This document shows positions 39,001-42,000 of a DNA stretch of 44,716 nucleotides, one piece after another. Origin of the DNA: Escherichia coli (GTDB lineage: Bacteria > Pseudomonadota > Gammaproteobacteria > Enterobacterales > Enterobacteriaceae). The DNA is taken from NCBI RefSeq assembly GCF_048403405.1, contig NZ_CP183137.1; one strand, written 5' to 3'. The stretch's first letter is position 1. Every line of letters starts with the position of its first letter. Position numbers: made by a program.

Positions 39001-42000
39001 TCTGAGCTTCCGTTACCTGGACCACAAAACGGGAGAAACGGCGACGGAAACGCTGACACAGCGGGAGCTGGTCGCGAGGCTGAAACAGCACATCCCGGAG
39101 AAGTTTTTTAAGATGGTGAGATACTTCGGGTTCCTTGCCAACCGGGTGTGTGGAGAGAAGCTGCCGCAGGTGTACCGTGCTCTGGGGATGGATAAGCCGG
39201 AACCAGTGGCGAAAGTGTGCTATGCACAAATGGTGAAACAGTTCCTGAGTCGTGACCCGTTCGAATGCGTGCTGTGTGGCGGCCGGATGGTATACCGCCG
39301 GGCCATTGCGGGGCTGAATGTATCAGGGCTGAAGAAAAACGCGCGGGATATCAGTCTGCTGAGGTATATGCCGGCCTGACACAGGCTAAGTGTGCCCGGG
39401 AATCGGTGCAGGTATAAAAAACAGCCTGTTACGGTATAAAAATCGACCATGCAGAGAGAGAAACCACCGGAGTGGAGGGAAAAGCAGAAAGGCTCACGTG
39501 GCATAAGGCGTGGACAGCGGTATCGTCTGGTTTTTCAATTTCCTATACGTGAACCAGTGGCGAAAGTGTGCTATGCACAAATGGTGAAACAGTTCCTGAG
39601 TCGTGACCCGTTCGAATGCGTGCTGTGTGGCGGCCGGATGGTATACCGCCGGGCCATTGCGGGGCTGAATGTATCAGGGCTGAAGAAAAACGCGCGGGAT
39701 ATCAGTCTGCTGAGGTATATGCCGGCCTGACACAGGCTAAGTGTGCCCGGGAATCGGTGCAGGTATAAAAAACAGCCTGTTACGGTATAAAAATCGACCA
39801 TGCAGAGAGAGAAACCACCGGAGTGGAGGGAAAAGCAGAAAGGCTCACGTGGCATAAGGCGTGGACAGCGGTATCGTCTGGTTTTTCAATTTCCTATACG
39901 TGAACTGGCATCTTGGATTTCGGTTGTTCTGCTGATTATATACCTATCAGGCAAGAATCACGTGCTTACAGCAGCTTTTCTCTGCTTTGCATGGACAGCA
40001 TTCTGGGTTCTTTTCCTTTTACATTATTTCCCAAAAGTTTTCTTTATTCTCGATCGTCAGAGTCTGCTCAACCTCATGGAGGCCACCAAAGACTCACCAG
40101 ATGTAAAGCAGGAGCTGCTTAACCGCCTTTTTTCCGGAAAAAGAATGACCGGGCGGGATGAAATGGATATCTGCCGTCTTCTGAGAAAAAATGAAGAAGA
40201 AAAAATCCGTCAGAGTGAACTGAATATCATCAGGAATTTTATTGATGAACAGCAGTTAACGAATAGTGATATTCCGAAGAAAAGTACGGTCCCAAATGAA
40301 GATAAAAAAGGCATAAGATGATATGAAATTAATAACCAGGCAAGCAGAGGATGGCGTGGTTTCATCCTAAGATTGATAGGGGTTAACCTGTAAGATAAAA
40401 GGACCGTGTTTACACGACGTCTCTGAAGGGCTTCGTTTGGGAAACGGACAATATCTAACTGACGAGGAAATTAAATAAGGGTTTAAAAATTAACGCACCA
40501 TATATTATACACAGTATATAACGATTCAGATATCGTCACCAGGATATGCCGCGTCAGCGGCATGGAAGGCGGCATTCCGTTGTTACATATGACACAGGAA
40601 TAAAACCGCCGAAGCCCGGCGTAAGCCGGTACTGATTGATAGATTTCACCTTACCCATCCCCAGCCCTGCTAAGCCATACCCGTTTTCAGCCATGACAGA
40701 GCTTCTGTGCGCGGTCGGAGTGGTCCCGACGAGGGTTTACCCGAAGTCGGGGCGTATCTCCGCGTTAGCGGGCCGAGAGGGCCGCTTACGAGCGTGTATT
40801 CAGTACGTCCAGCCAGAAGACTGACAGCGATGATGCTGCTTAGTTACAACATTCATAATTAAAAGCGATGTTGTTCCCGCCCTTTGGGCGGGGGCGGCCT
40901 CGCTTTTCAGTTATGAGGGGTAGGCACGGTGCTGCGTTTGTGTGGTGTTTTTATTCCTGATGTCTTTTTGCTGTGGTTTCAGAACGGTGAGGTTCGGGGC
41001 CCGCGCGTCAGCGTGGGAGGTGCATATCAGTCTGTCCACAGGACAGGCATTGAACAGGTTTTCTTTTTAAATGGAAGTAATTAAGTAGTTTAAAGGAAAT
41101 ACAGTACTGGAGTTTAAAAGAAACATTGCACCCTGTAACGCCTGCGGCTGGCGCTTTATAGCATTAACGGTTGTAACCTTATGGAGAAGTCCCTTGCAGT
41201 TAAATGTGGATAAACAGAATTACCCGTCTGTGAGACGTGTTTTGCGTGAAAAACAGGGGGAGCATGATGAGCCGGAAGGCAGATGATGAGGCTGTTTTTT
41301 GTGTGCTGTGCTGCTTTTTTGTGCGTCGCCGGGCTTCAGACGTGCGGAAGCCTCCGGCGCAGGCCGGATTATTCAGATGAGGTCAAACTCAGGGTGAGGC
41401 AGTGGCCAGCCGTGTGTAGTTGTTGTTCCGCGACATTATCATGCGTTCCTTCACGCGACGGTCGATTTCGCGCTTCACGGCCTCCAGGCTTCCGCGGAAA
41501 CGCCCTTCCGCGATTTCACGTGTCAGCTGCCGTTTCACCAGGGTGACAATGTCCTGACGGGTCCTGCCTGCATCGCGGCGCGCACGGGCACGTTTCATGC
41601 CGTGGGACTTAAGCTCTGCCTGATAACTGCGGAAACGCTCGCGCACAAAACGCCAGGCCCTCGCTATCAGTTCATCCATACCCAGCGCATCCATCCCCTG
41701 CTTTTTGCGCAGCCTGTTTTCCCATTCCACGCGGCTGCGGCGTGCGGAAGCCACTGCCTCTTCTGAGATATCGAGTGAGTCAAACAGTGCCGGCGTGAAC
41801 GTGATGTCGGTCGGGATGTTACAGCCAATTGTCGGGTCGTATTCCGTCTGGTAGGTTATCAGCCCCAGCTCAGACAGGAACTTCAGGGCACGGGTGGCAC
41901 GGGTGATGGAAAGTTTCCCGGCCTCAGACTCCGTCGCCAGTCCGCACTCAATGGCCAGCGTGGTGATGGAGCACTGCACGCGGTTGGCCAGCGGGTCATA

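What the first reader, a model, noticed from the sequence alone, without database searches (positions are those of the whole stretch)
39200..39905. Exact 351-bp tandem duplication of the IS91-family ori end: a rolling-circle footprint
The last 351 bp of the element (39200-39550) are repeated once more (39551-39901). Each copy starts with GAAC, one of the two IS91 target tetranucleotides, and ends with the ori terminus ...cctatacgt. This is what an intramolecular one-ended (rolling-circle) event into an internal GAAC would produce, so the copy may be actively transposing and could mobilise adjacent DNA.
Basis: seen in the sequence. Interest (0 to 1): 0.5.

Follow-up and report, generated by a model that had tools for sequence, protein, structure and literature searches.

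The report
Self-insertion scar in IS1294-type element
A known rolling-circle insertion sequence (IS1294b-type, IS91 family) on an E. coli plasmid carries an exact extra copy of its last 351 bp, most likely left when a copy of the element jumped into its own internal GAAC target and recombination then removed the redundant part; it is real but an ordinary by-product of known behaviour.

Summary
Window 39200-39550 is repeated exactly at 39551-39901. Each unit starts with GAAC and ends with the oriIS terminus ...CCTATACGT, and the flanking GAAC target follows. The host element is an intact 1,713-bp IS1294b-type IS91-family element (37838-39550).

The top strand of the IS has only three GAAC sites: its terIS end, 38603 and 39200. 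In public plasmids the ori end is found fused to each of them:
- 42 records have head-to-tail tandems.
- 4 records have ori|38603.
- 3 PLSDB plasmids plus one further RefSeq plasmid (the window's near-twin) have ori|39200.

These include complete nests, a heterologous nest, a triple nest, an exact 948-bp analogue of this duplication, and five left-part duplications that only nesting plus recombination can explain.

The best explanation is that an IS copy inserted into the resident copy's internal GAAC, and recA-type recombination between the 1,362-bp left repeats then left the full IS plus a 351-bp scar. "One-ended transposition" is the wrong label. A 351-nt mini-circle route is not excluded. 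Slippage and assembly artefact are unlikely. Interest is low to moderate. The one modestly new point is a roughly tenfold bias towards direct over inverted self-insertion.

The parts
37838..39550 (+). Complete IS91-family element of the IS1294b type, 1,713 bp (L+R). The left end is terIS, starting GAACCACGGCAGCC. The right end is oriIS, ending TTTCCTATACGT.
   Evidence: The boundaries come from identical copies in different flanks. It is 100% identical to copies annotated 'IS91 family transposase' in hundreds of plasmids.
37838..37841 (-). terIS cleavage tetranucleotide (5'-GTTC on the bottom strand). It is the first of the three top-strand GAAC sites of the IS.
   Evidence: One search gives the positions. 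One search reports a terIS cleavage site of 5'-GTTC for IS1294/IS1294b/IS801.
37840..37871 (-). Subterminal terIS hairpin directly next to the cleavage site.
   Evidence: -12.5 kcal/mol, z = -2.46, and 2 of 200 shuffles fold as well. The palindrome is GCAGCC-N4-GGCTGC.
37918..38190 (+). Small upstream ORF (90 aa, WP_000019163.1) that overlaps the tnpA start.
   Evidence: There is no NCBIfam match.
38171..39379 (+). tnpA, an intact 402-aa HUH/Y2 transposase (WP_000198533.1). The duplication does not disrupt it.
   Evidence: NF033538 IS91 family transposase, 311.9 bits against a cutoff of 125. An HPHVHV (HUH) motif and a YLGRY (YxxxY) motif can be read in the translation.
38603..38606 (+). The other internal top-strand GAAC. 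It is used in the same way in other plasmids.
39200..39203 (+). Internal GAAC used here as the insertion target. It is a bare tetranucleotide with no terIS-like hairpin.
   Evidence: z = -0.04.
39200..39550 (+). R1: the last 351 bp of the intact IS (tnpA 3' end plus oriIS).
39551..39901 (+). R2: an exact second copy of R. It is read as the surviving right part of the copy that received the insertion. It contains a tnpA 3' pseudogene fragment (39551-39730) and a complete second oriIS.
   Evidence: annotates it as an incomplete IS91 family transposase. One search reports that 82 bp of the ori end suffice in IS91.
39902..39905 (+). Flanking GAAC target of the original insertion, downstream of the plasmid repA.
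   Evidence: The same site holds a single IS copy in plasmid p95.

Best explanation
The element at 37838-39550 is an intact IS1294b-type member of the IS91 family. These elements move by a rolling-circle route and integrate next to a 5'-GTTC (GAAC on the top strand here). The IS itself carries GAAC on that strand at only three places: its terIS end, 38603 and 39200.

Step 1 (inferred here, shown elsewhere): a copy of the IS integrated into the GAAC at 39200 of the resident copy, in the same orientation. This gave L(LR)R, where L = 37838-39199 and R = 39200-39550.

Step 2 (inferred): host homologous recombination between the two adjacent 1,362-bp L repeats deleted one L. This left (LR)R, that is, a complete IS followed by a 351-bp copy of its ori end and the original GAAC flank.

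The product has two complete oriIS ends, each followed by GAAC. It is itself prone to collapse back to a single copy through the 351-bp repeats, which would explain its rarity. I put about 0.9 on the broader claim that this is a transposase-made junction at an internal target site. I put about 0.6 on the specific two-step route.
For: The junction is exact and lies at the IS terminus. The published rules fit: GTTC target next to oriIS and GTTC at the terIS cleavage site.

Only 3 PLSDB plasmids and 2 complete E. coli genomes carry the ori|39200 junction, out of about 3,000 records with the IS. All are in different flanks:
- L002 is the complete intermediate L(LR)R, with all parts 100% identical to the window's IS.
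- L001 is a 1,713-bp-type copy inside an IS1294-type copy at the same GAAC. The outer parts are 326/327 and 351/351 identical to IS1294, so it can only be an insertion.
- L003 is IS1294 carrying its own R duplication, with 10 SNPs relative to the window's R, so it is an independent origin.

The other same-strand GAAC sites behave the same way:
- ori|ter head-to-tail tandems occur in 42 records.
- ori|38603 occurs in 4 records.
- L007 is an exact 948-bp analogue, (LR)R.
- L009 is L(LR)R and L010 is L(L(LR)R)R.
- Five records are L(LR) without an extra R. These are the reciprocal recombination product, which an ori-side one-step event cannot produce.

The product ratios fit the repeat lengths. 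At 39200 (L 1,362 bp, R 351 bp) there are two (LR)R and no L(LR). At 38603 (L 765 bp, R 948 bp) there is one (LR)R and five L(LR).

recA-dependent recombination between IS1294 copies has been measured at about 3e-4, falling 100-fold in a recA mutant. 'Extra IS1294 at GTTC, then homologous recombination' is already a standard published inference. A single-copy state at the same GAAC|TGGCATC site exists in p95.
Against: No nested intermediate has been seen at this particular locus. All parts are 100% identical, so the sequence cannot distinguish the two-step route from direct insertion of a 351-nt truncated product. pCREC774-3 holds only this one copy of the IS, so the donor must have been a sister plasmid copy or a copy on another replicon, which I could not examine. 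The counts of the different product classes are small, and some records may share ancestry or may have spread as composite units. I did not search for solo 351-bp units.
Confidence: 0.6

Rival explanations
1. Premature termination (mini-circle) route. Rolling-circle transposition starts at oriIS (39550|GAAC) and terminates at the first internal bottom-strand GTTC (39203-39200) instead of at terIS. This releases a 351-nt single-stranded circle whose junction is exactly CCTATACGT|GAACCAGTGG. The circle then integrates at the GAAC flanking its own ori, or at the internal GAAC, and gives (LR)R in one transposition event.
For: The observed junction is identical to the one this circle would have. 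The functional intermediate in IS91 is a bottom-strand ssDNA circle, and termination at GTTC look-alikes without a true terIS is known from one-ended transposition. The route yields only direct-orientation products, which matches the orientation bias. GAAC is scarce on this strand of the IS, 2 internal sites against 9 GTTC, as if it were selected against (one-sided p = 0.03).
Against: It cannot produce the full nests L(LR)R, the heterologous nest, the triple nest or the five L(LR) structures. The insertion route is therefore needed anyway and suffices for everything seen. The internal site has no terIS-like hairpin. No solo R unit turned up among the loci examined, although that was not a systematic search.
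Confidence: 0.2
2. An incoming copy carrying foreign DNA. A one-ended transposition product (the IS plus the upstream TnEc1 fragment and accessory region) from another replicon landed in the internal GAAC of an older resident copy downstream of repA. R2 is the remnant of that resident copy, whose left part was later lost.
For: The left flank (a truncated TnEc1 transposase) is foreign to the IncI-complex backbone, while the right flank is backbone. In p95 the same site has a different left flank (blaCMY-2), which fits published IS1294b one-ended mobilisation into a hot spot downstream of the rep gene.
Against: No left part of a resident copy exists anywhere in pCREC774-3. R1 and R2 are identical, so nothing marks them as having different origins. 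The route needs an extra unexplained deletion.
Confidence: 0.1
3. Transposase-independent tandem duplication. Replication slippage or unequal sister exchange occurred between the 4-bp microhomology GAAC at 39200 and the GAAC flanking the ori end.
For: A tandem duplication bounded by a short direct repeat is the classic signature of slippage. The two GAAC sites lie 351 bp apart.
Against: Four-nt microhomologies at this spacing are everywhere in the window. One search counts 609 positions, of which about 350 lie inside the duplication itself. The chance of hitting the IS terminus exactly is about 1e-4. The same junction recurs in unrelated flanks, in a second IS variant and in a heterologous nest, which slippage cannot produce. 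The same holds at the second internal GAAC.
Confidence: 0.05
4. Assembly artefact. The true plasmid has one copy.
For: I could not examine reads. A 351-bp exact repeat is longer than short reads.
Against: Two non-identical assemblies agree. In pCREC774-3 the repeat lies about 78 kb into a 123-kb record, far from the record ends, so it is not a circularisation overlap. Artefacts would not respect GAAC and IS-terminus boundaries, nor recur as nests and analogues in independent assemblies.
Confidence: 0.03

Closest known systems
IS1294b / IS1294 (IS91 family, HUH Y2 rolling-circle insertion sequences of enterobacterial plasmids)
   Same: The transposase matches the IS91 family model. There are no inverted repeats and no target duplication. 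GAAC/GTTC lies next to oriIS, and GTTC plus a hairpin lies at terIS. The location downstream of the rep gene of IncI-complex plasmids, the same site as in a blaCMY-2 plasmid, matches what is published for IS1294b. The 1,688-bp relative seen in L003 and L009 matches the expected size of IS1294 (size from memory).
   Different: This copy has a second, tandem oriIS end (R2). I found no description of such partial ori-end duplications or of IS1294 self-nesting in the searchable literature. I could not check the name IS1294b against the ISfinder reference sequence.
One-ended transposition of IS91-family elements
   Same: The enzyme is the same, and so is the reliance on GTTC-like tetranucleotides as surrogate ends.
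   Different: One-ended transposition bypasses terIS and carries DNA beyond the left end. This duplication is at the ori end and inside the element. Nothing outside the IS was mobilised by this event.
'Extra IS copy, then homologous recombination between copies' rearrangements in resistance plasmids (described for IS1294 and IS26)
   Same: The logic is the same two steps: targeted insertion at GTTC, then recA-dependent deletion between direct IS repeats.
   Different: Here the target is the IS itself, so the deleted material is only IS sequence and the scar is a partial duplication of the element.
Double insertion of transposable elements generating tandem dimers in Drosophila (PMC5932611)
   Same: A transposon with target-site preference inserts into another copy of itself and produces tandem partial or whole-element repeats (title and abstract only).
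   Different: That work concerns eukaryotic cut-and-paste or retro-elements with a different chemistry. I cite it only as a conceptual parallel.

Membership tests
IS91 family insertion sequence | Encodes a HUH/Y2 rolling-circle transposase of the IS91 type | tested here: met
   NF033538 'IS91 family transposase' (equivalog), E = 5e-93, 311.9 bits against a cutoff of 125, covering profile positions 7-355 of 356. HPHVHV and YLGRY motifs can be read in the translation.
IS91 family insertion sequence | No terminal inverted repeats and no target-site duplication | tested here: met
   One search found no terminal inverted repeat. The flanks are ...TGATGATT on the left and GAACTGGC... on the right, with no direct repeat.
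IS91 family insertion sequence | Specific tetranucleotide (5'-GTTC/CTTG, i.e. GAAC/CAAG on the tnpA strand) abutting the oriIS end | tested here: met
   GAAC follows both ori ends in the window. GAAC or CAAG also follows most of the other copies examined. The exceptions are AAAT (L001), CGAG (L003), GCAC (L016) and GTAC (L017).
IS91 family insertion sequence | Distinct terIS end with a subterminal palindrome next to a GTTC cleavage site | tested here: met
   (hairpin z = -2.46, ending within GTTC). One search gives the published description.
IS91 family insertion sequence | Demonstrated rolling-circle transposition activity of this copy | not testable with these tools
   Activity is only inferred, from the intact tnpA, the intact ends and the 0/351 mismatches between R1 and R2.
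IS1294b (named isoform) | Near-identity to the ISfinder/GenBank reference sequence of IS1294b | not testable with these tools
   No reference sequence was available. The support is indirect. The same 1,713-bp element sits beside delta-ISEcp1-blaCMY-2 and downstream of the rep gene in p95, as published for IS1294b. It is 94.5% identical to the 1,688-bp IS1294-type element.
One-ended transposition product | terIS bypassed; DNA beyond the ter end co-mobilised and ending at a GTTC look-alike | tested here: not met
   The duplicated segment is internal and at the ori end. terIS and the left junction are unchanged.
Self-insertion (nested IS) derivative | Junction = ori terminus fused to an internal target tetranucleotide of the same element, in register | tested here: met
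   The same junction occurs in L001-L004.
Self-insertion (nested IS) derivative | Complementary left junction (internal position-1 fused to terIS) present at the locus | tested here: not met
   It is absent from the window and present only in L001 and L002. Under the favoured model it was removed by homologous deletion.

The most novel reading that the evidence does not exclude
IS1294-type elements self-target in a strongly strand-biased way because the HUH transposase integrates the bottom-strand circle into GTTC exposed on the lagging-strand template. New insertions in a unidirectionally replicating plasmid would therefore be co-oriented with resident copies. The resulting dual-oriIS derivatives, such as this one, and the L(LR) composites would then be able to move as new, longer units. 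An alternative novel reading is that bare internal GTTC sites act as premature terminators and release 351-nt ori-only mini-circles that re-insert.
Probability: 0.25. Interest if true: 0.5.

Novelty: new variant of a known kind. Interest (0 to 1): 0.28.

Why it matters
IS1294 and IS1294b move resistance genes such as blaCMY-2 between plasmids. This structure shows that the element also hits its own GAAC sites, leaving nests and partial duplications that annotation pipelines report as stray 'incomplete IS91 transposase' fragments. Recognising them as self-insertion scars helps in three ways. It prevents mis-annotation and unnecessary suspicion of the assembly. It gives a natural record of target choice, since all three same-strand GAAC sites are used and direct orientation is favoured about tenfold per site. 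It also points to a cheap experiment on strand bias and termination fidelity in IS91-family transposition. It does not reveal a new mechanism or a new function.

Tried and rejected
1. A 200-bp junction query was uninformative, because single-copy elements match its two halves as two joined pieces. I replaced it with 25+25-nt probes.
2. Exact 40-nt junction scans of genome contigs and metagenome contigs found nothing.
3. Literature searches for a prior description of IS1294 self-insertion, nesting or partial duplication found none. That shows only its absence from the open-access library.
4. H74 and H75 were examined as possible solo R units. They are ordinary single-copy insertions whose flank happens to start GAACCAGT, and BLAST found them for that reason, so they allow no inference about an extended target motif.
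5. I searched all of pCREC774-3 for a surviving left part of a resident copy and found none.
6. H1/L023 was fetched in the hope of finding the ancestral both-flank single-copy state. It is just a head-to-tail dimer elsewhere.
7. I tested whether the internal GAAC sites mimic terIS. They have no hairpin.

Full report
**Observation.** The sequence, Tandem Repeats Finder (39200-39905, period 351, 2.0 copies, 100% matches, no indels) and the repeat finder all confirm an exact tandem duplication, 39200-39550 = 39551-39901. Each unit starts GAACCAGTGG and ends TTTCCTATACGT, and a further GAAC (39902-39905) follows.

**The element.** I compared the region with copies in other plasmids. The mobile unit is 37838-39550, 1,713 bp. 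Its left end is GAACCACGGCAGCC... and its right end is ...TTTCCTATACGT.
- It encodes a 90-aa ORF (37918-38190) and an intact 402-aa transposase (38171-39379).
- The transposase matches NCBIfam NF033538 'IS91 family transposase' at 311.9 bits against a cutoff of 125.
- The element has no inverted repeats and makes no target duplication.
- Published work states that IS1294 integrates next to 5'-GTTC at its oriIS end, that the terIS cleavage site of IS1294/IS1294b/IS801 is also 5'-GTTC next to a palindrome, and that the functional intermediate in IS91 is a bottom-strand single-stranded circle.
- Read on the bottom strand, this element fits exactly: GTTC|ACGTATAGG... at the ori end, and ...CCGTGGTTC| at the ter end with a strong hairpin (z = -2.46).
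- The same 1,713-bp element sits next to delta-ISEcp1-blaCMY-2 and downstream of the rep gene in the IncI-gamma/K1 plasmid p95. That is the published setting of IS1294b. I therefore call it IS1294b-type, but I could not compare it with the ISfinder reference.

**Provenance and artefact question.** The window is 99.98% identical to RefSeq plasmid NZ_CP183144.1 (pCREC774-3, E. coli strain 774, urine, Taiwan), an IncI-complex plasmid. The two differ by four homopolymer indels, one SNP and one 4-bp indel. So two separate assemblies or sister isolates carry the same duplication, about 78 kb from the record ends. In p95 the same GAAC|TGGCATC site holds one copy of the IS. The IS is 100% identical there, while the right flank is only 97.9% identical.

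**How rare the junction is, and whether it is independent.** A 25+25-nt probe across the junction cannot match single-copy elements.
- It found only three PLSDB plasmids, out of about 3,000 with the IS, and two complete E. coli genomes.
- Exact scans of the species-representative genomes and of metagenomes found none.
- The four loci have different right flanks and different architectures. In what follows, L = 37838-39199 and R = 39200-39550.

| Locus | Plasmid | Architecture |
|---|---|---|
| L004 | pCREC774-3 | Same as the window, (LR)R |
| L002 | ETEC1732 unnamed4 | L(LR)R: a whole copy inserted into another at GAAC 39200, all parts 100% identical |
| L001 | pUTAK-7-1 | A 1,713-bp-type copy inside an IS1294-type copy at the same GAAC (outer parts 326/327 and 351/351 identical to IS1294). 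This heterologous nest can only be an insertion |
| L003 | Klebsiella pC268_1 | Two head-to-tail IS1294 copies (1,688 bp) followed by IS1294's own R (10 SNPs from the window's R), so an independent origin of the same duplication in the sister element |

**The general pattern.** The top strand of the IS has only three GAAC sites: position 1 (terIS), 38603 and 39200. It has nine GTTC sites. The positions are conserved in IS1294. Synthetic junction probes show the ori end fused to each of the three:

| Junction | PLSDB records |
|---|---|
| ori→ter (head-to-tail tandem) | 42 |
| ori→38603 | 4 |
| ori→39200 | 3 |

At 38603 the structures include:
- L007 (pEC38), a full IS followed by an exact 948-bp copy of 38603-39550. 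This is the perfect analogue of the window.
- L009, which is L(LR)R.
- L010, which is L(L(LR)R)R, a triple nest.
- Five further records that carry L(LR), a left-part duplication without an extra R, in both IS variants and in different flanks.

**Mechanism.** All of these structures follow from one rule. A copy integrates in direct orientation at a GAAC inside, or at the edge of, a resident copy. Host recombination between the resulting direct repeats then trims the nest.
- For the window the steps are L(LR)R, then recombination between the two 1,362-bp L repeats, then (LR)R.
- recA-dependent recombination between IS1294 copies has been measured at about 3e-4, with a 100-fold drop in a recA mutant. 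The same two-step logic is already used in the literature for IS1294 rearrangements.
- The product ratios fit the repeat lengths. At 39200 (L 1,362 bp, R 351 bp) there are two (LR)R and no L(LR). At 38603 (L 765 bp, R 948 bp) there is one (LR)R and five L(LR).
- Steps 1 and 2 are inferred for this locus. They are directly visible as intermediates and as reciprocal products in other plasmids.

**Rival explanations.**
- *Mini-circle route.* Premature termination at the internal GTTC would release a 351-nt circle with exactly the observed junction, which could re-insert at the GAAC next to its own ori. The sequence cannot exclude this. But the route cannot make the nests or the L(LR) forms, the internal sites lack a terIS-like hairpin, and no solo R unit turned up (this was not a systematic search).
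- *One-ended product into an older resident copy.* This would leave the resident's left part somewhere, and none exists in the plasmid.
- *Slippage at the 4-bp GAAC microhomology.* This is very unlikely. Such microhomologies are ubiquitous, the chance of hitting the IS terminus is about 1e-4, and the junction recurs in unrelated flanks, in a second IS variant and in a heterologous nest.
- *Assembly artefact.* This is unlikely for the reasons given under provenance.

'One-ended' is a misnomer, because one-ended transposition is failure to stop at terIS and carries DNA beyond the left end. The inference that the copy may be active is reasonable but unproven. The tnpA and both ends are intact and there are 0 mismatches in 351 bp. 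The ability to mobilise adjacent DNA is a known family property and does not follow from this duplication.

**Extra result.** Probes for inverted self-insertion at all nine top-strand GTTC sites found only three records, covering two sites. I verified them as inverted insertions. By comparison, seven PLSDB records cover the two direct-orientation internal sites. Per site that is roughly a tenfold bias. The binomial p is 5e-4 on records and 3e-3 on a conservative count of independent events. Inverted nests cannot be removed by simple deletion, so the bias is probably real. It could reflect strand-specific targeting, for example of the lagging-strand template, as is known for other HUH transposases (from my own knowledge, not tested here). 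In the seven loci I fetched where the IS lies near an IncF- or IncI-type repA, the IS is convergent with repA. This is a biased sample and only a lead.

**Novelty and interest.** The element and every step of the mechanism are known. The dual-oriIS architecture and the systematic self-targeting pattern are not described in the literature I could search. I classify the feature as a new structural variant of a known kind and score it low to moderate interest (0.28).

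Noticed in passing
window 7936-8477: An ori-end remnant of a third IS1294-like variant. It is 94.5% identical to 39010-39448, and its terminal 56 nt are 83% identical. It ends ...TTTCCTATACGT|CAAG, the alternative target tetranucleotide, and lies next to IS26 and other transposase fragments.
   Followed up: partly
window ~31230-32890: An IS91-proper-like element. It has a CTCG tetranucleotide plus a GCAGCC-N4-GGCTGC hairpin at about 31231-31260, an orf121-like ORF (121 aa in the RefSeq annotation) and a tnpA pseudogene with an internal stop and a missing C-terminus. The only 4-bp indel between the window and pCREC774-3 (CGTC at 32891) lies at its truncated end.
   Followed up: partly
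window 39800-40321 and 39449-39730: The annotated 173-aa 'hypothetical protein' WP_077248701.1 starts at an ATG inside the oriIS end and reads out into the flanking plasmid DNA. In R1 the same ATG gives a 93-aa ORF fused in frame to the last 59 codons of tnpA. There is no family match. It is probably an annotation artefact, but read-out expression from the ori end was not examined.
   Followed up: partly
window 37838-39550 (and IS1294 in L003 2337-4024): GAAC is scarce on the tnpA strand of the IS, with 2 internal sites against 9 GTTC. The GAAC positions are conserved between the 1,713-bp and 1,688-bp variants. The rest of the window shows no such asymmetry (174 GAAC against 201 GTTC). This could reflect selection against self-targeting or premature termination (one-sided p = 0.03).
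   Followed up: partly
PLSDB loci L001-L019: Self-insertion is about tenfold more frequent per site in direct than in inverted orientation. In the seven loci fetched where the IS lies near an IncF- or IncI-type repA, the IS is convergent with repA.
   Followed up: partly
L015-L019 and L010: The L(LR) composite occurs in five plasmids with different right flanks and in both IS variants. L010 is a triple nest, L(L(LR)R)R. The composites might spread as units, through read-through of the inner terIS to the outer one, rather than arising independently each time.
   Followed up: no
L001 1986, L003 4376, L016 5719, L017 5744: Some ori ends abut non-canonical tetranucleotides: AAAT, CGAG, GCAC and GTAC. 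CGAG (bottom strand CTCG) and GTAC are among the rare targets reported for IS91. The others may reflect adjacent deletions.
   Followed up: no
window 39902-41023 vs p95 (L005): The IS is 100% identical in the window and in the IncK blaCMY-2 plasmid p95, and it sits at the same GAAC|TGGCATC site. The backbone to its right is only 97.9% identical and the left flanks are unrelated. This fits the published 'hot spot downstream of the rep gene' for IS1294b.
   Followed up: partly
window ~33150-35050 and 35454-37844: A Pycsar effector-family gene and a nucleotide-binding-domain gene lie immediately left of a 5'-truncated TnEc1 (Tn3-family) transposase that abuts the terIS end. Further left are a K88-like fae fimbrial operon and an S6-family serine protease autotransporter. 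This accessory cargo lies on the side that IS1294b could mobilise by one-ended transposition.
   Followed up: no
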